64,000 nucleotides of DNA from Thermodesulfobacteriota bacterium (GTDB taxonomy: Bacteria; Desulfobacterota; Desulfobacteria; Desulfobacterales; C00003060). Each line of letters begins with the position of its first letter. Position 1 is the stretch's first letter. The stretch lies in assembly GCA_034189385.1 (NCBI GenBank), contig JAXHVD010000013.1:68259-132258 (forward strand), given 5' to 3'. This document shows, piece after piece, positions 7,010 through 44,519 of the stretch. The notes below the pieces were generated by a model, which worked only from the letters and a program-made list of their open reading frames with translations, was not told the DNA's origin and made no database searches. The position numbers and the translations under genes were made by a program.

Positions 7010-8902
7010 GAAACCTACGTAAAAAGCTTCTCCAAGGCTCACGTAGACTTGAAAGCTATCGTCAATCTCAGGCCTTCGATTTAACGGCACACCGACGTCA
7101 AGACGGAAAGGGCCGATGGGGGTGAAATACCGAAGCCCCAATCCTGTGCCCCAACCAAGCGTGTGGCTGAAATCCGGACTCGTCGTCTCAAAGGCAGTTC
7201 CTCCATCCAGGAAAGCGACCAGGCCGATGCGATCTGTCACCTTCAGTCGCAATTCTGTGGAGAGTTCAAAAAGGGACCTGCCGCCAAGGGGCTCGTCTTC
7301 CTCCAAGGGACCCACGGTCTGGAAGGGATAGCCCCGGATGGACCCGCCCCCGCCCGCATAAAAACGCTCATCTGCGGGGATGGCGTCACGGGAGGCGCCT
7401 ACCATGGAGCCCACCGCAACCCGCGCCGCCACCAGCGTGGAGGGATTGTCAACCATTTCCAGACAGCGACTCAGGCTCACCTTCCCCTTCAAAAAAGCGA
7501 AATCCTCACCGACCACATCGAAATAGGGGGTCAGTTGAAAGACAAGGCGGCCGCCATATGTGGGTTCCAGCACGTCGTCTCTGGTGTCCCAGTCAAAATG
7601 CCATGGTGATGAGACCAGACTGAAGCTCTCCTCCTCGTCCAGTTGGGTGACCGTGGAAGTCTTAAACGCCAGGCCTCCGCCTATGGTCATTCCTTTGCCC
7701 AAATCACGTTCCACAAGGGCCGAGCTTCTCAGGTTGCGGCTGGTGTAGGCCTCCGGGCGGTCTTCGGCCACACGCACATTTAGAAGCAAGGTCTGGTCCG
7801 GTCTCCAGAGGCTGGGCTTTCTGGCGGTCCCTTCTGCGGCCCGGGTGAAATCCGATGCGGTGGCCGTGAGGGTCAGACGTTCACCATGATGGAAGAGGTT
7901 ACGGTGCTCCCATGAGATCTTTGCCCCCGGTCCCTCATCTGTCTTGTAGCTCACACCAGCTCCCACGGAACGGTGCTTGCGCTCGGTGACCCCGATGGTT
8001 ATTGGGAGCAAGCCCCGTTCATCCAGGTGTTGATCCGGAGTAACCCTGACCATGGCAAAAAGCCCTGTCTTGGTGAGGCCCCTCTGAACCTCTACCAGAA
8101 AATCAGCATTATAGGCATCTCCTTGTTTCCAGGGGATCTTTCCGCGCACCAGGTCTTCGTCTACTGATTGAAGGCCCGTGATCTTTAAGGTCCCGAATCG
8201 GGCCGCCGGCCCTGGCTCGATGCGAAAATGGACGGCAACGGACCGGTCAGCATGGTCCACCAGGACCTTCCGCTCGTCGATTGTTGAAAAGGGAAAGCCT
8301 CTTGATTTCATGAGGCCCAGGAGTTTTTCTTCCCCGTCCAGGATGATCCGGGCCCGGGCGGGCTCGCCTTTTTGGAGGCCGATTTGTTCCGGTTCAGGCA
8401 GGCGAAGTCCCGATGGCGCTGCTCCGGCGGTTTCAATGTCAACACTTTTTAGAAGGTAAACCGGTCCCAAGTCCACCTGAAAGGTGACCCGGACAGGCAC
8501 TTTCTGTGCGTCTATATGGAGTTTGACTTGCCCCCCGTAGTAGCCTTCGGCCCGAAAGGCCTTTGTGAGCAGAGGAACATCACCTTCTGCTCGCCTGCGC
8601 AACTGGGAGAGGCTCACGGGGGGGCGCTCTTTTCTCAGGATCACGACATCAGAGATCTCCTCAAGGGTCTTTCGCAACTCCTTTTCCTCGACCCCTGTAA
8701 TGGTCGCCTGGTAGTCAAGCCCTGAGGGTTTGGCAAAGACTGTGTGTTCGAGTGAAATGAAAGCAAGGCAGAAAAGGAACACGAAGACCACCTGAGGGCG
8801 GAAACAGTGCCCACTAGGGGTCGTCCCGTGGCGGATGGCCAAGGAGGGCCACTTCTTTTCATTGGCATTGCTGTACGTCTTTTCACCGGCTGTCATGAGC
8901 AC
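6989..8902 (-). CDS. tamA: Omp85-family outer membrane protein TamA (POTRA domains plus beta-barrel)
   Basis: 637 aa with a signal-like segment VVFVFLFCLAFISLEHTVFA, POTRA-like repeats and an Omp85 barrel (...GGGGSIRGYPFQ..., ...LGLRYFTPIGPFRLDVG...). It is adjacent to tamB. The exact start is uncertain, and the last ~6-10 codons overlap repeat copy A. Confidence 0.8.
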   Translation of the reverse strand: MLMTAGEKTYSNANEKKWPSLAIRHGTTPSGHCFRPQVVFVFLFCLAFISLEHTVFAKPSGLDYQATITGVEEKELRKTLEEISDVVILRKERPPVSLSQLRRRAEGDVPLLTKAFRAEGYYGGQVKLHIDAQKVPVRVTFQVDLGPVYLLKSVDIETAGAAPSGLRLPEPEQIGLQKGEPARARIILDGEEKLLGLMKSRGFPFSTIDERKVLVDHADRSVAVHFRIEPGPAARFGTLKITGLQSVDEDLVRGKIPWKQGDAYNADFLVEVQRGLTKTGLFAMVRVTPDQHLDERGLLPITIGVTERKHRSVGAGVSYKTDEGPGAKISWEHRNLFHHGERLTLTATASDFTRAAEGTARKPSLWRPDQTLLLNVRVAEDRPEAYTSRNLRSSALVERDLGKGMTIGGGLAFKTSTVTQLDEEESFSLVSSPWHFDWDTRDDVLEPTYGGRLVFQLTPYFDVVGEDFAFLKGKVSLSRCLEMVDNPSTLVAARVAVGSMVGASRDAIPADERFYAGGGGSIRGYPFQTVGPLEEDEPLGGRSLFELSTELRLKVTDRIGLVAFLDGGTAFETTSPDFSHTLGWGTGLGLRYFTPIGPFRLDVGVPLNRRPEIDDSFQVYVSLGEAFYVGFAPISTS

Positions 8903-11005: not shown

Positions 11006-12091
11006 ATGGTTCTTCTCAGGAGCATTCTGCTCTGTGTCACGCTTTTAATTGTCCTGGGCGCCAGTGGCTTGGAGGCGCAAGAACAGCCTTTGGGCCGTGG
11101 CACCTTGATGGTGGGAACCAAAGAGGCGCCTCCTTTTTCCACGAAGACAGAGGACGGCTCGTGGAGAGGGATTAGCATTGATCTGTGGAACGAGATTGCC
11201 TCTGAATTGAATCTCATTTTTGAGTTCCGCGAGCTGGATCTGGCCGGCTTGCTGGACGGAGTGGCCAACGGCAATCTGGATGTGGCCGTTGCCGCCCTGA
11301 CCATTACGCCCGAGCGGGAGAAGGCCTTTGATTTCACCCATCCCTTCCACACTACCGGCCTTGGCATCGCTGTTGCCTCGAAGACCAAAAGCCCCTGGAT
11401 TGCGGTCCTGAAACGGTTCTTCTCGCTCGCCTTTCTTAGAGTCCTGGTGGCCCTTTCCGCCTTGTTGCTGGCGGTGGGCATCGTTGTGTGGTGGTTTGAA
11501 AGAAGGGGAAACCCAGGGCAATTCGGAGAAGGCACCGTAAAGGGGATAGGTTCCGGGTTTTGGTGGTCCGCGGTGACCATGACCACGGTCGGCTACGGAG
11601 ACAAAGCCCCTGTGACCGTGGGAGGACGCGTTGTGGCCCTCATATGGATGTTCGCCGGCATTATCGTGATATCGAGCATCACTGCGGCCATTACCTCAGC
11701 GCTGACGGTGACTCAGCTGGAATCAGGGGTCCGAGGGCCGGAAGACCTCACCGATGTAATCGTCGGCGCTCTGGCGGACTCTTCCAGTGCTGCCTATCTG
11801 CGAGAAAACCGGATCTCCTTCGACGAGTATGACACCGCCATGGACGGACTCCAGGCCGTGTCAGAGGGTATGATCGATGCCTTGGTATATGACGCCCCCA
11901 TTCTCCGTTATGTCGTGAACCAGGAATTCCGGGGCGAACTGCAGGTGTTGCCAAATACGTTTCAACGCCAGGATTACGGGATCGCCTTGCAGACCGGAAG
12001 TCCCCTGCGAGAGCCGATTAACCGTGTTTTGCTGCAAAAGATTCAAGCGCCGATATGGCAGGACACGCTGTATTGGTATCTGGGCGGATGA
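11006..12091 (+). CDS. GluR0-type ligand-gated potassium channel (periplasmic SBP-3 lobes flanking a K+ channel pore)
   Basis: ATG 11006 follows AAGGAGG. A signal peptide and solute-binding lobe 1 are followed by M1-P-M2 with the selectivity filter TMTTVGYGD, then lobe 2. The ORF-track start at 10805 overlaps corA and is rejected. Confidence 0.8.
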   Translation: MVLLRSILLCVTLLIVLGASGLEAQEQPLGRGTLMVGTKEAPPFSTKTEDGSWRGISIDLWNEIASELNLIFEFRELDLAGLLDGVANGNLDVAVAALTITPEREKAFDFTHPFHTTGLGIAVASKTKSPWIAVLKRFFSLAFLRVLVALSALLLAVGIVVWWFERRGNPGQFGEGTVKGIGSGFWWSAVTMTTVGYGDKAPVTVGGRVVALIWMFAGIIVISSITAAITSALTVTQLESGVRGPEDLTDVIVGALADSSSAAYLRENRISFDEYDTAMDGLQAVSEGMIDALVYDAPILRYVVNQEFRGELQVLPNTFQRQDYGIALQTGSPLREPINRVLLQKIQAPIWQDTLYWYLGG

Positions 12092-12493
12092 AGACCGATC
12101 TGTAAAGCCCTGAGTGAGTCACGACATCTAAACCGATTGTATTTTAGCGGACGATGGGACCCGACAGTTGGAAAATAGGCTGCAGTTGTGGTCTTGGAGC
12201 GAAAAGAAGACTCTTTTCTGTACATTGTTCAGCAAGGGAAATTTTCCAAACACACCTTGAACCGATTAAGCGAGCGCATTCTCCACAGGAGAGCTACCGC
12301 AGCCCCGTAGGTTCTGCCTGACGGCAGTGCTAACGCGGTGAGGCTGCGGGGTTAGCGAGCGTATATAAAATGAGACATATTCCTTACGGTCGCTGCGAAG
12401 CACTGCCGCTAGGTAGAACATTCCCTGCAGCTTGCTGCAGGGTCTTCAATGGTTTGTGAGCAAATCATCCAATAAGAAGCGAGAGTGGGCATC

Positions 12494-12664
12494 ATGGTCA
12501 GGTATATCATTGGAGCTTTGGCGGGTGCGGCGATTGGGGGCATCATAGGATATTTGGGTAAATGTTCCGGAAACACCTGAGGCATGACGGGCAGCCCCTG
12601 GTCAGGGGCTATTACCGGTGCAATAATCGGGATTATGATTGCCTCTTCCACTGTTTCCGGATAG
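12494..12664 (+). CDS. Candidate small membrane selenoprotein (56 codons, UGA at codon 29, C-x4-U motif)
   Basis: The ATG 12494 frame reads MVRYIIGALAGAAIGGIIGYLGKCSGNT-TGA(12578-12580)-GMTGSPWSGAITGAIIGIMIASSTVSG-TAG(12662). The frame stays open after the TGA and encodes a glycine-zipper helix. A hairpin with a GGUC loop follows the TGA. Confidence 0.55.
12588..12616 (+). promoter_or_regulatory. SECIS-like hairpin downstream of UGA 12578
   Basis: AGCCCCT (12593-12599) pairs with AGGGGCT (12604-12610), giving a perfect 7-bp stem and an apical loop GGUC (12600-12603) at nt 23-26 from the U of UGA. A lower CGG/CCG extension is present. This matches the loop and spacing I recall for the E. coli fdhF SECIS. 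Confidence 0.5.
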
Positions 12665-12834
12665 TCGCAGCCGCGCTTCGACTGTGAGCCAACGAAACGC
12701 CGAACAAGTGGATCGATGACGATTCATTAATCTGTGCGGCGTCAAGTTATGGCTTCCCAAGAGGGTCACCCACGGTGTTGGGTGCCGTGTAAAGATCTGC
12801 TAGCGACGCCCCGACTGGACGGGGGCTGCTTGGC

Positions 12835-13680
12835 ATGCAAGGAAGGCTCTCAATGAAAATCTTCAAGATCGGGTTTCCTTTGGTGGTTTCGGGTGCCGTG
12901 GCGGCATGTGTCGTGTTGGTGCTCAGGCCCCACGTTCAATACCAGGGGATCGTCGAAGACGTCTCGTCATGGGGTTCCTTTTTCACCGTCTTTGGTGTCA
13001 TCTACGCCATTGTTGCCGGCTTTCTCCTCGTCACTGTTCTGAACCGATACAGCGCTTTGAATTAGACGATCGAAGATGAGCTGAATGCTGTTGAGTGCGT
13101 CCGGGACTTTCTTGTATATTTGGACGACGAAAAACGCGGCGCGAAAACTGCCATTAAACGGGCGCTTGCGAACTACGTGAGGTCTCTGTCCATTAAGGAA
13201 TGGGAAGAGATGGCCGATCCTCGCACGCCGATGAACTCCGACACATCAGAGGAGCTGTACGAAATCATGCGCAAGGGAAAGGGGATACAGGTGACGAGAG
13301 AGCGCGACAGTGTCGTCCTTTCTGCGCTGGTGGAGAACATCTCAGAGATTACGAAAATGCGAACAAGGCGCATTGCACTCGCCAATGAAAGGCTGCCTCC
13401 TAGGCTCCGAATACTGATGGTTTTCATGTCAATTGCTCTCGTGGGCGCCTTTGTCCTCCTGGGCGTTCGGTGCGTATTCACACATGTATTCATTGTCGTA
13501 ACCCTCACCATTTCGATTCACCTTCTCTACATGATCATAGAAGACCTTGATCACCCCTTCCACGGTGTCTGGAACATCAACCGGGCGCCGCTGGACGAAC
13601 TCGCGAAAAGCTTCGAGGATGAGCTGAGAGAGAATCAGACCCATAACAGGCCCAACACTCTGTGGTCGGGGGAGGGTTAG
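12835..13680 (+). pseudogene. DUF4239-like membrane protein interrupted by a single in-frame TAG
   Basis: ORFs 12835-13065 and 13120-13680 are in the same frame. The only stop between them is TAG 13063-13065 (...NRYSALN*TIEDELNAVECV...). The joined product has N- and C-terminal TM helices and a KEWEEM motif typical of DUF4239, as I recall it. Confidence 0.55.
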
Positions 13681-13735: not shown

Positions 13736-14710
13736 TCACAGCCACTTTATCCGCTTGAACCATCCCACCAATAGTACTGCAAGGCCCACAAGGCCTAGAG
13801 CCACGATAGCAAAGGCCCATTTGTATTCTGCTCCCGGAATACCGCCGACATTGATCCCAAGCAGTCCTGTAAGGAGCCCCAAGGGCAAGAATATGGCCGC
13901 TACGATGGAAAGCAAGTACATGGCCTTGTTCATCTGTTCCGACAAACGGTTGTTCAGTTCTTCCTGGGTGACAGCAGCATGCTCACGGGCTGAGTCAATA
14001 TCTTCAACAAAACGTGCCGTGCGTTCCCATACCTCGCGTATGTGCGCTTTGTCCATGTCATCCAGCCATGGAATGCGTTCATTCTGCAACCGTGCAATAA
14101 CATCCCGCTGAGGGGCCACATATCGCCGCAGACTGATGGTCTGGCGCCGCAGGTCGGAAAGCTTGGGTCGTAGTTCCTTGCTTTCGGCAGTGAGCACTGT
14201 GTCTTCCAGTTCATCTACGCTGTCGTCAATTTCAGCCACCACGTCTCCCATCCGGTCTGTTATGCGACGGCAGACCATGATCAGAAAATCAGCCGAAGAG
14301 GTAGGCCCTGTACCGGACTTGATCGCGTTGCCAATGTCGTCAATGGCCATCACGCGCCTGTGTCTCATAGATAGGATGCGATGTTCGGTAAACAACATGC
14401 GCAATGAGACCATATCCTCAGGATCGGCTCCGGGGTTGCAGTTTACCCCCCGCAGTATCAAAAGGAGGCCCTCCTCAGAAAAGACGCAACGGGGCCGTGT
14501 CTCCTCTGCAAGCAAGGATTCCGATAATATGGAACTAAGGCCGCTGTCGTCCGATAACCATTTTTGAACTTTTTCATTGGCATAATCAAGGTGCAACCAC
14601 AGTACCCCTTGCTCCGCAGACCACTGCTTGACTCCTTTCCAATCGATAGCTTGGCCGCCACCCTGACCATCGAGGACATACGCAAATACGAGGCCTTCCT
14701 GTTCGTTCAT
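13736..14710 (-). CDS. zntB: Zinc transporter ZntB (CorA superfamily), copy 1
   Basis: 324 aa. The C-terminal TM pair carries the ZntB-type motif LTGLLGINVGGIPG and the ending ...WFKRIKWL. RBS AAGGGAGGGA. Confidence 0.9.
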   Translation of the reverse strand: MNEQEGLVFAYVLDGQGGGQAIDWKGVKQWSAEQGVLWLHLDYANEKVQKWLSDDSGLSSILSESLLAEETRPRCVFSEEGLLLILRGVNCNPGADPEDMVSLRMLFTEHRILSMRHRRVMAIDDIGNAIKSGTGPTSSADFLIMVCRRITDRMGDVVAEIDDSVDELEDTVLTAESKELRPKLSDLRRQTISLRRYVAPQRDVIARLQNERIPWLDDMDKAHIREVWERTARFVEDIDSAREHAAVTQEELNNRLSEQMNKAMYLLSIVAAIFLPLGLLTGLLGINVGGIPGAEYKWAFAIVALGLVGLAVLLVGWFKRIKWL

Positions 14711-14775
14711 GTTCCGTCCCTCCCTTGGATTGAAGCCCCATGTTTAAGTTGCCGCTGACGAAAACCCATGATCGG

Positions 14776-14804
14776 AATCTAATGGATGCCACAAGACCTG
14801 TCAA
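14776..14804 (-). promoter_or_regulatory. Putative sigma70-type promoter of zntB copy 1
   Basis: On the minus strand: TTGACA (14804-14799), a 17-nt spacer, then TAGATT (14781-14776), about 65 nt upstream of the zntB ATG. Confidence 0.4.
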
Positions 14805-15538
14805 ACACCGGACCTGAATCCAGCCAGATTGCCCACATCATGGCCCTTCCGTCTCATTGCGTGGGGGAAACCCGTCTCAGTACATGGAAAGAAAAGGGCC
14901 ATCCATTTCCTACTCCTTTGCGACGTTTCCCCCACTTGACATTCCTCTGCAATGTATGTAAGCAAAATGCAGACACACCTCTGGAGGGCAGCGAAGACTT
15001 TTTCCCCAGACGGCTTCTGGCAGCGTGCGCCTCTGCATGACTGGTCATTTTTCAGTGTTTTGCGTTGTTGGTCAACACAAGGGTTCGGGGTGAGTTGAGT
15101 TTCTCGTATGGAGGAGGGGTGAATGCGAGTGACTTTGGGACAACGCAATGGCCCAGCTTTGTTACCCCCTCTTTGTGCCCATATGGCACGTGAAATATTG
15201 CTCAACCAGGGGCTACCAATCACAGTGCCTCCTTTCCATGCCACCGGCCGCAGTGACGGCCAAGCAATCTACCTTTGTGGCGAAGAAGAATCACGACCCC
15301 ACCCTGTTTGCAGGCCTTTTCGCACACCTGCCGGCTCCGTCCGGGGTCGGATTGAGAGATGCCCTAATTATCTTAAACCGTTAGGCGAATCGCCGGCACA
15401 ATGTGCGCCTGTTGAAACCCTATGGGGCCGACCTCATCCCTTTGTGATCCATGGAATCGGAATGAAGACACGGGGGCTCAAGCATGGGTGGTCGTCCATG
15501 TTTGTGGCAAGTCTGGTGGAGCGCCCTGGAGAAGATAT

Positions 15539-36754: not shown

Positions 36755-37729
36755 TCACAACCATTTTATCCGCTTGAACCATCCCACCAATAGTACTGCA
36801 AGGCCCACAAGGCCTAGAGCCACGATAGCAAAGGCCCATTTGTACTCTGCGCCTGGAATGCCGCCAACATTGATCCCGAGCAGTCCGGTAAGGAGCCCCA
36901 AGGGCAAGAATATTGCCGCTACGATGGAAAGCAAATACATGGCCTTGTTCATCTGTTCCGACAAACGGTTGTTCAGTTCTTCCTGGGTGACAGCAGCATG
37001 CTCACGGGCTGAGTCAATATCTTCAACAAAACGTGCCGTGCGTTCCCATACCTCGCGTATGTGCGCTTTGTCCATGTCATCCAGCCATGGAATGCGTTCA
37101 TTCTGCAACCGTGCAATAACATCCCGCTGAGGGGCCACATATCGCCGCAGACTGATGGTCTGGCGCCGCAGGTCGGAAAGCTTGGGTCGTAGTTCCTTGC
37201 TTTCGGCAGTGAGCACTGTGTCTTCCAGTTCATCTACGCTGTCGTCAATTTCAGCCACCACGTCTCCCATCCGGTCTGTTATGCGACGGCAGACCATGAT
37301 CAGAAAATCAGCCGAAGAGGTAGGCCCTGTACCGGACTTGATCGCGTTGCCAATGTCGTCAATGGCCATCACGCGCCTGTGTCTCATAGATAGGATGCGA
37401 TGTTCGGTAAACAACATGCGCAATGAGACCATATCCTCAGGATCGGCTCCGGGGTTGCAGTTTACCCCCCGCAGTATCAAAAGGAGGCCCTCCTCAGAAA
37501 AGACGCAACGGGGCCGTGTCTCCTCTGCAAGCAAGGATTCCGATAATATGGAACTAAGGCCGCTGTCGTCCGATAACCATTTTTGAACTTTTTCATTGGC
37601 ATAATCAAGGTGCAACCACAGTACCCCTTGCTCCGCAGACCACTGCTTGACTCCTTTCCAATCGATAGCTTGGCCGCCACCCTGACCATCGAGGACATAC
37701 GCAAATACGAGGCCTTCCTGTTCGTTCAT
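36755..37729 (-). CDS. zntB: Zinc transporter ZntB (CorA superfamily), copy 2
   Basis: The protein is identical to copy 1. About 12 nucleotide differences, all synonymous, are confined to the last ~180 nt of the gene. Confidence 0.9.
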   Translation of the reverse strand: MNEQEGLVFAYVLDGQGGGQAIDWKGVKQWSAEQGVLWLHLDYANEKVQKWLSDDSGLSSILSESLLAEETRPRCVFSEEGLLLILRGVNCNPGADPEDMVSLRMLFTEHRILSMRHRRVMAIDDIGNAIKSGTGPTSSADFLIMVCRRITDRMGDVVAEIDDSVDELEDTVLTAESKELRPKLSDLRRQTISLRRYVAPQRDVIARLQNERIPWLDDMDKAHIREVWERTARFVEDIDSAREHAAVTQEELNNRLSEQMNKAMYLLSIVAAIFLPLGLLTGLLGINVGGIPGAEYKWAFAIVALGLVGLAVLLVGWFKRIKWL

Positions 37730-37794
37730 GTTCCGTCCCTCCCTTGGATTGAAGCCCCATGTTTAAGTTGCCGCTGACGAAAACCCATGATCGG

Positions 37795-37823
37795 AATCTA
37801 ATGGATGCCACAAGACCTGTCAA
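37795..37823 (-). promoter_or_regulatory. Putative sigma70-type promoter of zntB copy 2
   Basis: The sequence is identical to 14776-14804 (TTGACA-17-TAGATT on the minus strand). Confidence 0.4.
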
Positions 37824-38645
37824 ACACCGGACCTGAATCCAGCCAGATTGCCCACATCATGGCCCTTCCGTCTCATTGCGTGGGGGAAACCCGTCTCAGT
37901 ACATGGAAAGAAAAGGGCCATCCATTTCCTACTCCTTTGCGACGTTTCCCCCACTTGACATTCCTCTGCAATGTATGTAAGCAAAATGCAGACACACCTC
38001 TGGAGGGCAGCGAAGACTTTTTCCCCAGACGGCTTCTGGCAGCGTGCGCCTCTGCATGACTGGTCATTTTTCAGTGTTTTGCGTTGTTGGTCAACACAAG
38101 GGTTCGGGGTGAGTTGAGTTTCTCGTATGGAGGAGGGGTGAATGCGAGTGACTTTGGGACAACGCAATGGCCCAGCTTTGTTACCCCCTCTTTGTGCCCA
38201 TATGGCACGTGAAATATTGCTCAACCAGGGGCTACCAATCACAGTGCCTCCTTTCCATGCCACCGGCCGCAGTGACGGCCAAGCAATCTACCTTTGTGGC
38301 GAAGAAGAATCACGACCCCACCCTGTTTGCAGGCCTTTTCGCACACCTGCCGGCTCCGTCCGGGGTCGGATTGAGAGATGCCCTAATTATCTTAAACCGT
38401 TAGGCGAATCGCCGGCACAATGTGCGCCTGTTGAAACCCTATGGGGCCGACCCCATCCCTTTGCGATTCATGGAATCGGAATAGAGATATGTGGCTCAAG
38501 GATCGGTGGGCGTCCATGTTTGTGGCAAGTCTGGTGGGTGGGGCACGCTGGAGAAGACATCTCACAAGACTTCAACATAAAGAGGACAGACTTGACGGCT
38601 TCGTAAAAAGTCGAAAAACACCTCTTTCTTTCATTTAACTTCTGG

Positions 38646-38685: not shown

Positions 38686-38786
38686 GACAAATTATGACAC
38701 AGCCTCGAAAGCTGGGCACGTAGTGGCTCTTTTTAGGCCGTGAGGCGCAACCCTAAGCCCTATCCAGTCCTTTCAACAAGTTCTGG

Positions 38787-38807
38787 ATGCCGGATCAAGT
38801 CCGGCAT
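38787..38807. repeat. REP-like palindrome (second copy of the TTCTGGAT.CCGG motif)
   Basis: ATGCCGGA-TCAAG-TCCGGCAT is a perfect 8-bp stem. It shares the 5' context (A)GTTCTGGAT(G/C)CCGG with 38639-38653. Confidence 0.45.
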
Positions 38808-38966
38808 GGTGATTCAAGGACTTTTTGCGACGCTGTCAACGTTAAGAAGGTGGGAGAAATCTACAGATGCAAAGCCGGTGGGAATGTCGACGAGGTGCTG
38901 GAGGTCGACTGGGGGAAACTGGTATGCTGCGGCCAACCAATTGTATTGGAAAAACCAGGAGAATAG
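38787..38966 (+). CDS. Desulforedoxin-like small ORF with a degenerate metal site (possibly a pseudogene)
   Basis: The frame reads ...AVNVKKVGEIYRCKAGGNVDEVLEVDWGKLVCCGQPIVLEKPGE*, compared with dx at 16247 ([43 protein letters not shown]). The second Cys of C-x2-C is replaced (CKAG). The only in-frame ATG (38787) lies inside a palindrome. Confidence 0.4.
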   Translation: MPDQVRHGDSRTFCDAVNVKKVGEIYRCKAGGNVDEVLEVDWGKLVCCGQPIVLEKPGE

Positions 38967-38976
38967 GAGGTACACC

Positions 38977-40014
38977 ATGTCACAAGCGAAGCCAGGAATT
39001 AATCGTAGGGATTTCATTAAGTTGGGGGCACTCGCTGCTGGCGGGGCGGCTCTTTCAGGAAGGATACCCTTTGCGCAGGCCGCTGGCACAAGCGAAGAGC
39101 CTGACAGCCCCATCTATTTGGCCCTCAACATGTCTAAAGTGGCCAACAACGAGGAGAGCTTTCGCCTGATGAAAAAAGTCGGTCCCAAGGTGTGCATCAC
39201 CACGGCCTCCCATCCCGGATTTGTAGGATTTCAGGCCAACATCCAGACCGGCATCCTCCCCTTAGCTGGTCGGTATGGTGGAGGAAAGGTGCACATGGAA
39301 AAAGAACTCAACCCCATTCGCAACTACCAGTATACCATGTGGAAACGATGGGAAGATCATGACGATTTTCATGCCAAACAATTCAACAGGACCTTTGAAC
39401 TGTGCGGCAGTTGTCTTTCCATGGTCGTTGAAGGGCCGTGGGAGCCTGTGTACAGGATCGTGAAGGCCAAAATGCCTCCCGTGCGGTCCATGGGTCAGAT
39501 TACCGACCTTGGAGTCGACATGCAGCACAAAAAAGAGTTTATCCGTTTTGCCACCCCCATGCGCTGTGTAGCCATGGCAGAGCACACGGTGAAGACTGGC
39601 AGAGAGGCTGATTTTGAACAAGGGGCCATTGCCACCATGGAGGCCCTGTCCGATTCCACAGGATTTCTCGGGTACATGATTCTAAAGCAGATGGGCGTTT
39701 GTGCCTTGGGGAGTTTCATGCTGGATCCCCAATCCATGGGGGAGGCATTGCAGACTCTGGGCGCGAATCCTCCAAAAGATCCCAAACCCCTTTTCAAGAC
39801 ACCCGAGGCCATGCCGAGCCCTCCGGAGTACCTGATCCATACTGAATGGGACGCCGTGGAGATGGCCCGACTCGGTTTTGCCAAGGTCCTGGTCAATCAC
39901 AGGATCAAGAAAATACATGACGATGGGGTCATGGCACACCTTATGCGGGGACCGTACATCATGTTCTTCCAGCCTATGATGGAAGAGCCGGGCTGGCGGG
40001 CCATGCTTGGGTAG
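38977..40014 (+). CDS. sor: Sulfur oxygenase reductase (SOR) homologue with a Tat signal peptide
   Basis: ATG 38977 follows TAGGAGG. The Tat leader is [35 protein letters not shown]. The mature part matches SOR ([49 protein letters not shown]; YGPYI-like [13 protein letters not shown]). The 79 codons upstream in the ORF track are rejected. Confidence 0.85.
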   Translation: [345 protein letters not shown]

Positions 40015-40075: not shown

Positions 40076-40609
40076 ATGAATATGAATCAGACGGCCGGTC
40101 AAAGCGCTTGGAACCCTTATTTGGCAGGCATCTTAAGTGGCTTGGTCCTTGTCCTGTCGGTGTGGGCTTCAGGCAAGTACTTTGGGGCGTCAACCACCTT
40201 TGTTCGCTCCGCAGGCCTCATTGAAAGAGTCTTCACTGCCGAGCGGGTAGCCAAGATGGATTATTTCGTAAAAGAAGTGCCTCAGATCGACTGGCAGTGG
40301 ATGTTTGTAGCAGGCATTTTTTTCGGGTCTCTCTTAGGATCGACCACCTCCGGCAGCTTTCGATGGAAGGCTGTGCCGGACATGTGGGCCGGACGCTTCG
40401 GGCCTAGCCGGTTGAAGCGTGCCGCAGCAGCCTTTCTCGGAGGGCTGGTTGCCATGTTCGGGGCTCGTCTGGCCGATGGGTGACCGAGCGGCCATGGGCT
40501 GGGCGGGTCGGTTCAGCTGGCGGTAAGTGCCTATATTGCTTTGGTCTGCTTCTTCATGGGCGGCATCATCATGGCACGCATCCTCTACAGAGGAGATGGC
40601 CAGAGATGA
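40076..40609 (+). CDS. YeeE/YedE-family sulfur-transport protein, N-half, candidate selenoprotein (UGA at codon 136)
   Basis: ORF 40076-40483 stops at TGA within ...FGARLADG-TGA-PSGHGLGGSVQLAVSAYIALVCFFMGGIIMARILY.... The frame then stays open to TGA 40607-40609, which overlaps the next start (ATGA). The UGA sits where the family has the conserved Cys of G-C-x-S-G-H-G. Confidence 0.6.
40498..40517 (+). promoter_or_regulatory. SECIS-like hairpin downstream of UGA 40481
   Basis: GCUGGGC (40498-40504) pairs with GUUCAGC (40511-40517), giving 5 Watson-Crick and 2 G-U pairs. The apical loop GGGUCG contains GGUC at nt 26-29 from the U of UGA. Confidence 0.4.
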
Positions 40610-41133
40610 CAATCCTAACATACGGTTTGGTCACAGGGGTGCTTTTTGGCTTCTTCTTGCAGAAGGCCAGGGTCATTCGTTATGACAAGCAGCTCGGTGC
40701 CCTGCGCCTGAAAGACATGACAATCGTCAAGTTCATGTTTTCCACCGTCTTGACCGGGATGGTTGGCGTGTACCTATTTGTGGATCTCGGCTTGGCCCAA
40801 CTTTCTGTTAAAACGACAGTCTTGGGCGGCAACATCCTTGGCGGATTGATTTTTGGTCTTGGCTGGGGTTTACTGGGCTACTGCCCTGGCACAGCAGTGG
40901 GTGCCTTGGGTGAAGGCAGATGGGACGGGTTGTGGGGTGTCCTTGGCATGCTTGCTGGTGCGGCGCTCTTTGCCGAGGCCTATCCGATTTTCAAGGGGAC
41001 CGTTCTCACGTGGGGCGCTTTCGACAAGATCACCCTACCTCAGATTCTGAGGGTGAACCATTGGATTGTCATCGGCCTCTTTGTTGTCGGAGGATTGAGC
41101 CTCTTTGGGTGGTTTGAAAAGAAGGGCTTGTGA
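40606..41133 (+). CDS. YeeE/YedE-family sulfur-transport protein, C-half
   Basis: 175 aa with four TM helices and the motif GLGWGLLGYCPGTAVGALGEG. Its start overlaps the stop of the extended upstream gene. Confidence 0.8.
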   Translation: MTILTYGLVTGVLFGFFLQKARVIRYDKQLGALRLKDMTIVKFMFSTVLTGMVGVYLFVDLGLAQLSVKTTVLGGNILGGLIFGLGWGLLGYCPGTAVGALGEGRWDGLWGVLGMLAGAALFAEAYPIFKGTVLTWGAFDKITLPQILRVNHWIVIGLFVVGGLSLFGWFEKKGL

Positions 41134-43255: not shown

Positions 43256-43267
43256 GGCCGGCAGCTG

Positions 43268-43624
43268 TTTGTGGATCTTGGCTTGGTCCAACTTGTTGTT
43301 AAAGCGACAGTTGTAGGCAGCAACATCCTTGGCGGATTGATTTTTGGTCTTGGCTGGGGTTTGCTGGGCTACTGTCCTGCCACAGCAGTGGGTGCCTTAG
43401 GAGAAGGCAGATGGGACGGGTTGTGGGGTGTCCTCGGCATGCTTGCTGGTGCGGCCCTCTTTGCCGAGGCCTATCCGGTTTTCAAGGGGACCGTTCTCGC
43501 GTGGGGCGCTTTTGACAAGATCACTCTGCCTCAGATTCTCCGGGTGAACCATTGGGTTATCATGGCTTTGTTTGTTGTTGGAGGAGTGAGCCTTTTTGGG
43601 TGGTTTGAAAAAGGGAGGCTCTGA
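43268..43624 (+). pseudogene. Truncated duplicate of the yedE C-half gene (last 117 codons only)
   Basis: ~90% nucleotide identity to 40777-41133 at an offset of 2491. It begins immediately after the mscS stop and has no RBS or native start. The ORF-track Met is an in-frame GTG. Confidence 0.75.
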
Positions 43625-43706
43625 CTGTTGACAGGGACGGAAAGGGTCAGCGAATGTCAACAGAACCAAGTACAAAAGCTTATCCTAAGGGAAGGAGAAC
43701 AGCGTT

Positions 43707-44519
43707 ATGAAGGCCCTGAGAAATGATGCTATCGTCGTTGTATTGCTTATCACCTTATTACTGTCTTGCAGTACCGTTCCCATCACCGGCAGAAAGCAAC
43801 TCGATTTTATTCCCATCTCTAGCATGCTGGCCATGAGCGTTCAGGAATACGACGCTTTTTTGAAGTCCAACAAACTGAGCACCAATCAAAAGCAGACGCA
43901 GATGGTAAAAGAAGTGGGCTTGCGGGTTCAAAAGGCCGTGGAGGCGTACTTTGCCAAGAATCAGCAATCCGGCGCCCTGGACGGCTACGGCTGGGAGTTC
44001 AATCTCGTGGAAAGTGACGAGGTAAACGCCTGGTGCATGCCCGGGGGAAAGGTCGTGGTCTACACAGGGATTCTTCCCATCACCCAGGATGAGGCCGGTC
44101 TTGCCACGGTCATGGGCCATGAAATAGCGCACGCAGTGGCCAGGCACGGCAATGAGCGCATGAGTCAGGCCCTGATAGCACAAATGGGAGGCATAGGGCT
44201 GGCAGCGGCCTTGAAGGAAAAACCGCAGAAGACCAAAGAACTCTGGATGACGGCCTTTGGATTGGGTACTCAGGTAGGGGTCCTTTTGCCTTACAGCCGT
44301 TTGCAGGAAAAAGAGGCGGACCACTTGGGCCTCATTTTCATGGCCATGGCCGGTTATGACCCTAACCGGGCGGTAGATTTCTGGCAGAGGATGGCCCAGA
44401 AGAAAGGCGGGCAGGCCCCGCCGGAATTTCTGAGCACCCACCCTGCTGATGAAACCAGAATCGCCAAGATTAAGGAATTGATGCCCGAGGCCATGGGGTA
44501 CTATGCCAGGCCACAGTAA
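43707..44519 (+). CDS. M48-family zinc metalloprotease lipoprotein
   Basis: Lipobox LLSC, HExxH as HEIAHAVARH, and a downstream Glu in EKEADHLG. Size and layout are like the YcaL/LoiP class. Confidence 0.85.
   Translation: MKALRNDAIVVVLLITLLLSCSTVPITGRKQLDFIPISSMLAMSVQEYDAFLKSNKLSTNQKQTQMVKEVGLRVQKAVEAYFAKNQQSGALDGYGWEFNLVESDEVNAWCMPGGKVVVYTGILPITQDEAGLATVMGHEIAHAVARHGNERMSQALIAQMGGIGLAAALKEKPQKTKELWMTAFGLGTQVGVLLPYSRLQEKEADHLGLIFMAMAGYDPNRAVDFWQRMAQKKGGQAPPEFLSTHPADETRIAKIKELMPEAMGYYARPQ

What the first reader, a model, noticed from the sequence alone, without database searches (positions are those of the whole stretch)
12494..12664. 56-codon glycine-zipper membrane protein with a C-x4-U motif and a textbook-like SECIS hairpin
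No ORF of 60 aa or more is called here on the plus strand. Even so, ATG 12494 opens a frame reading MVRYIIGALAGAAIGGIIGYLGKCSGNT-UGA-GMTGSPWSGAITGAIIGIMIASSTVSG-TAG. The part after the UGA is clearly protein-like, with a GxxxG-rich TM helix. The pattern G-K-C-x4-[U]-x2-T-x2-P-W matches a family of ~50-60-aa bacterial membrane proteins with G-C-x4-C-x-x-T-x-x-P that I recall (possibly a DUF61xx entry; the name is not verifiable here). The UGA therefore again replaces a Cys of a putative redox or metal-binding C-x4-C pair. Twelve nt after the UGA a perfect 7-bp stem (AGCCCCU/AGGGGCU) closes a GGUC tetraloop at nt 23-26. E. coli fdhF has GGUC at nt 22-25.
Basis: partly seen in the sequence, partly recalled or inferred. 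Interest (0 to 1): 0.7.

Follow-up and report, generated by a model that had tools for sequence, protein, structure and literature searches.

The report
Small membrane selenoprotein gene (DUF6132)
A 56-codon gene that looks cut in half by a stop codon most likely encodes a tiny two-helix membrane protein in which that stop codon is read as selenocysteine, and this protein family is absent from the current selenoprotein catalogues I could check.

Summary
Window 12494-12664 (+) reads MVRYIIGALAGAAIGGIIGYLGKCSGNT-UGA-GMTGSPWSGAITGAIIGIMIASSTVSG-TAG. A perfect 7-bp stem with a GGUC loop starts 12 nt after the UGA.

- **Family:** with U→C the peptide matches Pfam DUF6132 across the UGA (44 bits, cutoff 23). 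The UGA aligns with the second Cys of a C-x4-C pair present in 206 of 207 family proteins.
- **Orthologues:** seven other distinct genes (one Chloroflexota MAG, six metagenomic) keep TGA at the same codon, an open downstream frame under purifying selection, and the same hairpin. The hairpin's Gly codon is GGG in 8/8, against 15% elsewhere in these genes. Four Cys-form genes lack the hairpin.
- **Sec decoding:** the window also holds a YeeE/YedE gene with the published GUxSG Sec motif, and one orthologue lies 1 kb from a Sec-type MsrA.
- **Not found:** sel genes and tRNA-Sec are absent from the window, and there are no expression data.
- **Function (inferred):** Cys forms are fused or adjacent to rhodanese and thioredoxin, suggesting a membrane Cys–Sec redox or sulfur relay.
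- **Novelty:** the family is not among the 119 catalogued prokaryotic selenoprotein families, nor in NCBIfam. It is a new member of a known kind, of moderate interest.

The parts
12494..12577 (+). N-terminal coding part: 28 codons covering helix 1 and the start of the turn. It contains the conserved Cys24 codon TGT at 12563-12565.
   Evidence: Translation. The Pfam DUF6132 match covers residues 2-51. The ATG start matches homologue N-termini MVRYIIGA and MIRYILGA. pN/pS is 0.23 across 8 orthologues.
12578..12580 (+). In-frame UGA, read as selenocysteine (residue 29). It occupies the position of the second Cys of the family's invariant C-x4-C.
   Evidence: TGA is at the same codon in all 8 distinct Sec-form genes. 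It aligns with invariant C29. TGA is otherwise an ordinary stop, used by 14 of 36 window genes.
12581..12661 (+). C-terminal coding part: 27 codons covering the rest of the turn (GMTGSPWSG) and helix 2.
   Evidence: The frame is open in all 8 orthologues. Variable columns by codon position are 10/8/18 of 21, and pN/pS is 0.40. A restart codon just after the UGA exists only in the window and L001, and the other six have ATT or ATA there.
12662..12664 (+). True stop codon, TAG.
12593..12610 (+). Bacterial SECIS-type hairpin inside the coding sequence. It has a 7-bp stem (AGCCCCU/AGGGGCU) and a GGUC apical loop at 12600-12603, with 19 nt between the UGA and the loop.
   Evidence: Fold. A 6-bp core is conserved in 7 of 8 orthologues (L013 has an A·G mismatch inside it), with two G·U changes and one compensatory G-C to A-U change. 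The 3'-arm Gly codon is GGG in 8/8, against 14/92 elsewhere. Four Cys-form genes have no equivalent hairpin. The geometry fits the published bSECIS consensus: G in the first two loop positions, 16-37 nt from the UGA, a 6-8 bp stem, and G about 20 nt downstream (PMC13188914 section 5; PMC4605307).
12582..12621 (+). Possible lower stem extending the hairpin: GCAU 12582-12585 with GUGC 12618-12621, and CGG 12588-12590 with CCG 12615-12617.
   Evidence: Present in the minimum-free-energy fold of the window sequence. Similar outer pairs appear in L005 and L011 but not in all orthologues, and RNAalifold does not keep it. Weak.

Best explanation
Window 12494-12664 is one gene for a 56-residue selenoprotein of the DUF6132 family.

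**Recoding (inferred from the standard bacterial mechanism).** When the ribosome reaches UGA 12578, the hairpin 12593-12610 sits just outside the mRNA entrance. It recruits SelB·GTP·Sec-tRNASec through its GGUC loop. Selenocysteine is then inserted instead of termination, and translation continues to TAG 12662.

**Product (partly inferred).** The protein is a two-helix hydrophobic hairpin, most likely membrane-embedded. Its inter-helix turn carries Cys24-x4-Sec29.

**Function (inferred from the neighbourhoods of Cys-form relatives).** The Cys/Sec pair cycles between a reduced state and a selenenyl-sulfide or persulfide-carrying state. In this reading it acts as a membrane-anchored redox or sulfur-transfer relay that works with thioredoxin- and rhodanese-type partners.

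**Shown here:**
- the sequence features;
- family membership;
- the Cys/Sec alignment;
- conservation of the TGA, the downstream frame and the hairpin in 8 genes;
- absence of the hairpin in Cys forms;
- other selenoprotein-type genes on the same DNA.

**Inferred only:** actual Sec insertion, membrane topology and the chemistry.
For: 1. **Family match.** The U→C peptide matches PF19628 DUF6132 at 44.2 bits (cutoff 23.2) over residues 2-51, spanning the UGA.
2. **Cys/Sec alignment.** The UGA aligns with the second Cys of C-x4-C, invariant in 31/31 aligned sequences and present in 206/207 family proteins. The family has 1400 cluster representatives at E<=1e-3.
3. **Orthologues.** Seven further distinct genes (L001 Chloroflexota MAG; L004, L005, L007, L011, L012, L013 metagenomic) all have TGA at this codon and a conserved open frame after it.
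4. **Selection downstream.** Variation concentrates at third codon positions (18/21 against 10/21 and 8/21), and pN/pS is 0.40. There is no conserved restart codon.
5. **Hairpin conservation.**
  - It occupies the same place in all 8 genes, with 92.9% of cells paired against 32-66% in slid controls. There is one compensatory pair and two G·U changes.
  - The 3'-arm Gly codon is GGG in 8/8, against 15% for the other Gly codons of the same genes.
6. **Cys-form control.** Cys-form genes L002, L015, L018 and L019 lack the hairpin.
7. **SECIS geometry.** It fits the published bSECIS model (PMC13188914; PMC4605307).
8. **Sec decoding on the same DNA.**
  - The window's YeeE/YedE gene has ARLADG-UGA-PSGHG, the catalogued GUxSG motif, and matches Sulf_transp at 79 bits across the UGA.
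  - L005 has MsrA with G-UGA-FWG and a full PMSR match.
9. **Genetic code.** TGA is a normal stop in 14/36 window genes, so the code is standard.
10. **Function.**
  - L002 and P0003 are DUF6132-rhodanese fusions.
  - L020 reads DUF6132-rhodanese-DUF6132-DUF302-thioredoxin.
  - L015 and L023 have thioredoxin overlapping DUF6132.
  - L019 reads ArsR-DUF6132-Fer4-Trx-DsbD_TM-rhodanese.
  - Sec forms sit next to MsrB/MsrA, FMN reductase or an FAD/Fe-S/CCG oxidoreductase.
11. **Structure.** The AlphaFold2 model of a Cys form gives helix 2-25, turn 26-34 and helix 35-52.
Against: - No selA, selB, selD or tRNA-Sec lies in the window or in any held locus.
- Rfam gives no SECIS match even at E<=10. 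This is weak evidence, because Rfam has no general bacterial SECIS model.
- The hairpin's local fold is not exceptional (z -1.1).
- Covariation is statistically weak, with 72 of 500 shuffles reaching the observed score on only 8 related sequences.
- The stem overlaps the conserved peptide S-P-W-x-G-A, so part of its conservation is protein-driven.
- L013's stem has an A·G mismatch.
- Codon-usage scoring does not separate the sense frame from the antisense ORF 12409-12651.
- The structural model has only moderate confidence, pLDDT 68.
- The window's own immediate neighbours are ion channels and CorA, not redox genes, so the functional inference rests on relatives.
- There are no expression or proteomic data.
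Confidence: 0.85

Rival explanations
1. Pseudogene or sequencing error. A DUF6132 gene whose second Cys codon (TGY) mutated to TGA would be a dead gene, and the hairpin would be coincidental.
For: A single-base change TGT/TGC to TGA suffices. The neighbouring bestrophin-like gene does carry an in-frame TAG at 13063, so disrupted genes exist in this window. Hairpins of this quality follow 0.38% of TGAs by chance.
Against: TGA sits at the identical codon in 8 distinct genes of 59-71% identity from different samples and phyla. The downstream frame stays open and shows third-position-biased variation, with pN/pS 0.40. The Sec forms are a distinct subfamily (GKC...U[GI][IM]T) with their own conserved hairpin and a GGG codon bias.
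Confidence: 0.03
2. Two separate products. Translation ends at UGA 12578, giving a 28-aa peptide, and a second 26-aa peptide starts at ATG 12584 (MTGSPWSG...). This would be a split two-peptide system without selenocysteine.
For: In the window and in L001 an ATG lies two codons after the TGA. Single-helix glycine-rich peptides do exist.
Against: In the other six orthologues that codon is ATT or ATA, and the next in-frame start lies 10-25 codons downstream, inside or beyond helix 2. There is no ribosome-binding site, because the upstream sequence is the coding turn. The Pfam match and the Cys-form homologues are continuous across the junction. The conserved hairpin would sit over the start of the second ORF.
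Confidence: 0.04
3. UGA is read through without selenium, for example near-cognate insertion of Trp or Cys, or context-dependent leaky termination. The product would be full-length but not a selenoprotein.
For: Sec machinery was not found in the window. Stop-codon read-through stimulated by downstream structure is known in bacteria (own knowledge).
Against: The UGA replaces an invariant redox-type Cys, which is the hallmark of Sec/Cys pairs. The hairpin has SelB-type geometry and a GGU loop. Selenoprotein-type genes of two catalogued families, YeeE/YedE (predicted) and MsrA (experimentally verified), lie on the same DNA in the window and in L005. TGA is a frequent genuine stop here.
Confidence: 0.05
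4. The real gene is the 80-aa antisense ORF 12409-12651 (-), and the plus-strand frame is a by-product.
For: It is the longest ORF at the locus, and its codon-usage score (0.21) is no worse than that of the sense pieces (0.15-0.17). L004 also has an antisense ORF of 104 aa.
Against: Its Pro/Ala/Ile-rich sequence is what the reverse complement of a Gly/Ala/Ile-rich gene gives. The corresponding antisense frame carries stops in 5 of 8 orthologues. Variation falls on the third positions of the plus-strand frame. Only the plus-strand peptide matches a curated family.
Confidence: 0.02

Closest known systems
Pfam PF19628 DUF6132 (Cys-containing forms)
   Same: Same family by HMM (44 bits against a cutoff of 23). 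Members share a 50-80 aa length, two hydrophobic Gly/Ala-rich helices, a G-C-x-x-G-x-[C/U]-x-[IL/IM]-T-x-x-P-[YW] turn, and invariant positions G11, G15, C24, T32, P35 and G46.
   Different: The second Cys is replaced by UGA/Sec. The subfamily signature is YLGKC...U[GI][IM]T rather than [VI]GC..G.CP[IL]T. The residue after Cys/Sec is Gly or Ile instead of Pro. An in-ORF hairpin is present that the Cys forms lack. Identity to Cys forms is only about 22-40%.
E. coli fdhF SECIS, the archetypal bacterial SECIS recognised by SelB
   Same: A stem-loop immediately downstream of the UGA and inside the ORF. It has a small apical GGUC loop at almost the same distance (nt 23-26 here, 22-25 in fdhF) and about 11-12 nt between the UGA and the upper stem. 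It fits the consensus model in PMC13188914 and PMC4605307. The fdhF numbers come from my own knowledge.
   Different: A perfect 7-bp stem without the bulged U of fdhF. SelB binding is untested. There is no Rfam hit.
YeeE/YedE thiosulfate-transporter family selenoprotein (PF04143, motif GUxSG), a catalogued bacterial membrane selenoprotein
   Same: An integral-membrane protein in which Sec replaces a Cys, linked to sulfur or selenium trafficking. A member is encoded in this same window at 40076-40609.
   Different: An unrelated fold and a much larger protein, a multi-pass transporter half. The motif differs and there is no sequence similarity.
TsoB rhodanese/DsbD fusion-like selenoprotein (NF045694, motif UxxxxU)
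   Same: Same x4 spacing of the chalcogen pair. It is also associated with rhodanese and DsbD, as in the contexts of DUF6132 Cys forms.
   Different: A 572-position model with two Sec residues. The DUF6132 peptides do not match it. P0003 touches it only through its rhodanese domain (13 bits against a cutoff of 805). I could not read the primary paper.
Glycine-zipper small membrane protein families (PF13436, PF13441, PF13488, PF05433)
   Same: GxxxG-rich hydrophobic helices and small size.
   Different: All scores fall below the gathering thresholds (12-18 bits against 24-29). Those families have no C-x4-C turn.

Membership tests
Pfam PF19628 DUF6132 | HMM score above the curated gathering threshold over most of the profile | tested here: met
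   44.2 bits against 23.2, E=1.5e-11, residues 2-51 on profile positions 6-55 of 60, with U written as C.
Pfam PF19628 DUF6132 | Conserved G-C-x4-C-x-[IL]-T-x-x-P-[YW] turn between two hydrophobic helices | tested here: met
   The alignment shows G11, G15, C24, C29 (=U), T32, P35 and G46 invariant. 206/207 family proteins have C-x4-C. The model of a Cys form gives helix, turn, helix (pLDDT 68).
Bacterial selenoprotein (SelB/SECIS-dependent UGA recoding) | In-frame UGA aligned with a conserved Cys of non-Sec homologues | tested here: met
Bacterial selenoprotein (SelB/SECIS-dependent UGA recoding) | TGA-containing orthologues in other organisms, with a conserved coding frame downstream | tested here: met
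   Eight distinct genes all have TGA. Downstream pN/pS is 0.40 with a third-position bias.
Bacterial selenoprotein (SelB/SECIS-dependent UGA recoding) | bSECIS stem-loop: small apical loop with G in its first two positions, 16-37 nt after the UGA | tested here: met
   A 7-bp stem with a GGUC loop 19 nt after the UGA. It is conserved in orthologues and absent in Cys forms. The consensus criteria come from PMC13188914.
Bacterial selenoprotein (SelB/SECIS-dependent UGA recoding) | Sec machinery (selA, selB, selC, selD) in the same genome | not testable with these tools
   Not in the 64-kb window, and the source genome could not be located. Indirect support comes from a second Sec-type gene (YeeE/YedE, GUxSG) in the window and a Sec-MsrA in L005.
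Bacterial selenoprotein (SelB/SECIS-dependent UGA recoding) | Demonstrated selenium incorporation or UGA read-through | not testable with these tools
   Needs 75Se labelling, mass spectrometry or reporter assays.
Rfam SECIS families | Covariance-model match | tested here: not met
   No hit at gathering thresholds or at E<=10 on 12400-12750. From my own knowledge, Rfam's SECIS models cover eukaryotic and a few lineage-specific elements, so this does not argue against a bSECIS.
Catalogued prokaryotic selenoprotein families (NCBIfam selenoprotein models; Table 1 of PMC13188914) | Match to any existing selenoprotein family model or listing | tested here: not met
   NCBIfam release 20 gives no hit for three Sec forms or a Cys form. 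PF19628, DUF6132 and CxxxxU are absent from the 119-family table and from the BSepDB paper.
Glycine-zipper families (PF13436, PF13441, PF13488, PF05433) | HMM score above the gathering threshold | tested here: not met
   12.4-17.9 bits against cutoffs of 24-29.

The most novel reading that the evidence does not exclude
This is a previously uncatalogued bacterial selenoprotein family and one of the smallest selenoproteins predicted. It would be a ~55-residue two-helix membrane hairpin whose inter-helix turn carries a Cys-x4-Sec selenenyl-sulfide switch. It would work as a membrane-embedded relay that passes reducing equivalents or sulfane sulfur/selenium between thioredoxin- or rhodanese-type partners and the membrane. 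That would give the first functional handle on the roughly 1400-cluster DUF6132 family.
Probability: 0.55. Interest if true: 0.55.

Novelty: new member of a known kind. Interest (0 to 1): 0.5.

Why it matters
- **Annotation.** Gene callers miss this gene completely. No full-length relative is present among 5.8 billion protein clusters. Every genome carrying it therefore shows an empty gap or a spurious antisense ORF.
- **Catalogue.** Recognising it would add a family to the prokaryotic selenoproteome. It would also provide a clean test case for SECIS prediction: a short ORF, a perfect fdhF-like hairpin and 8 orthologues.
- **DUF6132 function.** Sec substitution marks a residue as redox-active. 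The finding therefore turns DUF6132, a widespread family of unknown function, into a testable hypothesis: a membrane thiol/selenol relay coupled to rhodanese and thioredoxin.
- **Limits.** It does not change how Sec decoding is understood, and new selenoprotein families are found regularly. The significance is therefore moderate.

Tried and rejected
- **Word-index homologue search** with the joined peptide found nothing. I read this as absence of full-length Sec-form or close Cys-form proteins in the database, not as absence of a family.
- I used a Cys-form alignment instead.
- **Rfam** at gathering and permissive thresholds gave no SECIS hit.
- **Codon-usage log-odds scoring** of TGA-split frames had too little power on 28-codon Gly-rich pieces. 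It returned only antisense artefacts inside known genes.
- **Source genome.** Exact-protein look-ups gave only a 2-kb Logan contig for Hsp20 and nothing for pyruvate kinase, so selABCD could not be checked.
- **tRNA scans.** Neither the window nor the nine Sec-form loci I scanned contain a tRNA-Sec.
- **Promoter and terminator scan** of 12000-13000 gave chance-level hits only.
- **Bestrophin-like gene.** I considered it a second recoding case, but its in-frame stop is TAG, not TGA.
- **TsoB.** I considered DUF6132 to be part of TsoB (UxxxxU). I rejected this because only the rhodanese domain of P0003 touches that model.
- **Literature.** Haft & Tolstoy 2025 (PMC12013261) is not held. I relied on its families as listed in PMC13188914 and NCBIfam.
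- **Steps not run.** I did not run fold search on the pLDDT-68 two-helix model, because matches to a generic helical hairpin would be meaningless.
Full report
**1. The observation.**
- From ATG 12494 the plus strand reads MVRYIIGALAGAAIGGIIGYLGKCSGNT, then TGA (12578-12580), then GMTGSPWSGAITGAIIGIMIASSTVSG, then TAG (12662-12664).
- The mechanical ORF list shows only 31-, 41- and 26-aa pieces on the plus strand. An 80-aa ORF lies on the opposite strand at 12409-12651.
- Twelve nucleotides after the TGA, AGCCCCT (12593-12599) pairs perfectly with AGGGGCT (12604-12610) around a GGTC loop (12600-12603).
- The minimum-free-energy fold of 12575-12625 contains this hairpin at -20 kcal/mol.

On its own the hairpin is not statistically remarkable. 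The fold has a z-score of only -1.1 against dinucleotide shuffles. In the window, 9 of 2346 TGA trinucleotides (0.38%) are followed by a perfect stem of 7 bp or more with SECIS-compatible distance and loop. The case therefore has to rest on comparative evidence.

**2. Family membership and the Cys/Sec pair.**
- With U written as C, the 56-aa peptide matches Pfam PF19628 (DUF6132). The score is 44.2 bits against a gathering cutoff of 23.2, E=1.5e-11, over residues 2-51, so the match runs across the UGA.
- Glycine-zipper families score only below threshold, and NCBIfam has no model for the family.
- A Cys-form homologue from an Oscillospiraceae MAG (L002) served as a query and returned 60 DUF6132 proteins.
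- In a 31-sequence alignment, C24 and C29 (window numbering) are invariant, and the UGA occupies C29.
- A profile search of 1.84 billion representatives found 1400 family clusters at E<=1e-3. Of the 207 family sequences I hold, 206 have C-x4-C and the other has C-x5-C.

**3. Orthologues that keep the TGA.**
- The genome scan found a Chloroflexota MAG gene (L001): MVGIVIGVAAGSLIGGVIGYLGKCSGNG-TGA-GMTRSPWSGAVFGAIIGLMIGIA.
- The metagenome scan found 11 more loci, six of them distinct.
- All eight distinct genes, counting the window, have TGA at the same codon, followed by an open, conserved frame of 23-29 codons.
- They form a subfamily with the signature YLGKC[SAG]G[SN]xU[GI][IM]T[GASR][SN]PW. 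None of the 207 Cys-form sequences carries the GKC signature.
- No full-length relative of the subfamily exists in the 5.8-billion-cluster protein database. This is expected if gene callers always truncate these genes.

**4. Is the part after the UGA translated?** Four results bear on this.
- Downstream of the UGA, 18 of 21 third codon positions vary, against 10 and 8 of 21 first and second positions. Mean pN/pS is 0.40, compared with 0.23 upstream.
- Only the window and L001 have an ATG two codons after the TGA. The other six have ATT or ATA there, and no start codon follows for 10-25 codons. This rules out a conserved second ORF.
- The matching antisense frame contains stops in 5 of 8 loci.
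- TGA terminates 14 of 36 Pfam-supported genes in the window, so the organism uses the standard code.

A pseudogene, a split gene, an antisense gene and a reassigned codon are therefore all poorly supported.

**5. The hairpin as a SECIS.**
- In all eight genes a hairpin starts 12-13 nt after the TGA.
- On the aligned DNA (A3), 92.9% of cells of the 7-bp helix are standard pairs, against 32-66% when the 3' arm is slid by 1-3 columns. There are two G-C to G·U changes (L004, L007) and one double change, G-C to A-U (L011), which also alters two amino acids. L013 has one A·G mismatch. RNAalifold recovers a 6-bp consensus.
- The shuffle control is weak, with 72 of 500 shuffles reaching the observed score. 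The stem encodes the conserved peptide S-P-W-x-G-A, so covariation alone does not prove an RNA constraint.
- Codon choice does support one. The Gly codon in the 3' arm is GGG in 8/8 genes, whereas only 14 of the other 92 Gly codons in the same genes are GGG. The sequences are related, so this is not a clean probability, but neighbouring synonymous sites vary freely among them.
- Four Cys-form genes (L002, L015, L018, L019) have no comparable hairpin at the equivalent place. Their core energies are -0.2 to -9.0 kcal/mol, against -8.1 to -13.2 for the Sec forms.
- The geometry matches published descriptions: a 7-bp stem, a GGUC loop, 19 nt between the UGA and the loop, and the first loop G 20 nt downstream.
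  - PMC13188914 describes a G, often followed by G or U, in the first two positions of a small apical loop 16-37 nt from the UGA.
  - PMC4605307 describes a 6-8 bp stem with the conserved G about 20 nt downstream.
- Rfam gives no hit. I do not weigh this, because Rfam lacks a general bacterial SECIS model.

**6. Sec-decoding capacity.**
- The window has no selA, selB, selD or tRNA-Sec, and I could not locate the source genome.
- However, the window contains a second gene of the selenoprotein type. At 40076-40609 (+) a YeeE/YedE half-transporter reads ...FGARLADG-TGA(40481)-PSGHGLGG....
  - This is the 'GUxSG' motif listed for the YeeE/YedE selenoprotein family in Table 1 of PMC13188914.
  - With U→C it matches Sulf_transp at 78.9 bits across the UGA.
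- In locus L005, MsrB follows the DUF6132 gene, and then comes an MsrA reading ATFALG-TGA-FWGPD.
  - It has a full PMSR match once U→C is applied, and it carries the 'selenoprotein MsrA helical domain'.
- Both lineages therefore very probably decode UGA as Sec.

**7. What it probably does.** An AlphaFold2 model of a Cys form (P0011, 34-sequence alignment) gives helix 2-25, turn 26-34 and helix 35-52 at moderate confidence, pLDDT 68. This is a helical hairpin with the first Cys at the end of helix 1 and the second in the turn.

Gene neighbourhoods of Cys forms point repeatedly to thiol and sulfur chemistry.
- L002 and P0003 are DUF6132-rhodanese fusions with an intact CRSGNRS loop.
- L020 has DUF6132-rhodanese-DUF6132-DUF302-thioredoxin behind an ECF sigma factor.
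- In L015 and L023 a thioredoxin gene overlaps the DUF6132 start.
- L019 reads ArsR-DUF6132-ferredoxin-thioredoxin-DsbD_TM-rhodanese.
- Two contexts, L018 and L021, are uninformative.

Sec forms also sit beside redox genes.
- L005 has MsrB and Sec-MsrA downstream.
- L004 and L009 have an NADPH-dependent FMN reductase upstream.
- In L001 an FAD/4Fe-4S/CCG oxidoreductase ends 8 nt before the start codon.

In the window the immediate neighbours are ion channels and CorA. Hsp20, desulforedoxin, a glutaredoxin-thioredoxin-reductase fusion and FtsH follow within 5 kb.

My best inference is a membrane-anchored Cys24/Sec29 redox or sulfur(selenium)-transfer relay that works with thioredoxin- and rhodanese-type partners. 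This functional step is inference only, and I give it about 40% confidence. A metal(loid)-binding role, hinted at by the ArsR and DUF302 neighbours, is the main alternative.

**8. Comparison with what is known, and novelty.** The mechanism is ordinary bacterial Sec recoding. The family assignment (DUF6132) is met by test. I found no sign that a Sec form of this family has been described.
- 'DUF6132' returns no relevant paper.
- The 2026 catalogue of 119 prokaryotic selenoprotein families lists no PF19628, DUF6132 or CxxxxU entry (PMC13188914, Table 1 read in full).
- Neither the BSepDB paper nor the deep-Sep paper mentions it.
- NCBIfam release 20, which holds the NF04xxxx selenoprotein models, matches neither Sec nor Cys forms.
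- The catalogue entry nearest in motif is TsoB (UxxxxU, a rhodanese/DsbD fusion). It is not homologous through the DUF6132 part.
- One caveat remains: I could not read Haft & Tolstoy 2025 directly.

I therefore classify this as a new member of a known kind. It is a genuine but moderate advance. It is useful for annotation, since the gene is invisible to gene callers, and for assigning a redox role to a widespread DUF. It would not surprise a selenoprotein specialist.

**9. Verdict.**
- Confidence that this is a real Sec-encoding DUF6132 gene with a functional SECIS: about 0.85.
- Confidence that it is uncatalogued: about 0.65-0.7.
- Interest: 0.5.

Noticed in passing
window 40076-40609 (+), TGA at 40481-40483: A YeeE/YedE (Sulf_transp) half-transporter gene has an in-frame TGA in the motif ARLADG-U-PSGHG. 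This is the catalogued GUxSG selenoprotein motif. With U→C it matches PF04143 at 79 bits across the UGA. The mechanical ORF list shows only the overlapping out-of-frame partner ORF 40480-41133, the second YeeE half (DUF6691/Sulf_transp).
   Followed up: yes
window 12835-13680 (+), TAG at 13063-13065: The bestrophin-like (PF14023) gene directly downstream of the target is interrupted by a single in-frame TAG, with protein-like sequence on both sides. It could be a pseudogene, a sequencing error or read-through. It is not a Sec case.
   Followed up: partly
window 13736-15384 and 36755-38403: A recent duplication. The two CorA-family genes are 964/975 nt identical. TGA-containing frames I scanned in the ~700 nt of non-coding sequence beside each copy (14744-15384 and 37763-38403) translate identically. 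The copies lie 23 kb apart.
   Followed up: partly
window 40765-41064 and 43256-43555: A 300-nt direct repeat at 91% identity. Part of the second YeeE/YedE half-gene is repeated as a truncated copy (ORF 43271-43822 region) just after an MscS channel gene.
   Followed up: no
window 38740-40014 (+): A sulfur oxygenase reductase (PF07682 SOR, 473 bits) lies immediately upstream of the YeeE/YedE selenoprotein pair. This suggests a sulfur-metabolism islet in a window otherwise dominated by ion channels and transporters: CorA x3, a GluR0-like channel, MscS x3, CDF, RND, a P-type ATPase, SLC12 and a Na/Ca exchanger.
   Followed up: no
L005 6250-7679 (+), TGA near 7029: The metagenomic orthologue locus has DUF6132(Sec), then MsrB, then MsrA(Sec, G-U-FWG) on one strand. 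A hairpin ACUCCCG-GUU-CGGGAGU follows the MsrA UGA. This may be a small operon with two selenoprotein genes.
   Followed up: partly
window 12423-12442 and 12297-12349 (+): The 400-nt gap upstream of the target holds a perfect 9-bp palindromic hairpin (CCCTGCAGC/GCTGCAGGG, 2-nt loop). It also holds an 8-bp inverted repeat (CCGCAGCC/GGCTGCGG) spaced by 37 nt. Neither has a T-run, and their function is unknown.
   Followed up: no
L020 2857-3977 (+): One Cys-form locus carries two DUF6132 genes flanking a rhodanese gene. A 78-aa ORF overlaps the start of the first copy, and DUF302 and thioredoxin lie downstream. This is the most complete 'DUF6132 redox cassette' I saw.
   Followed up: no
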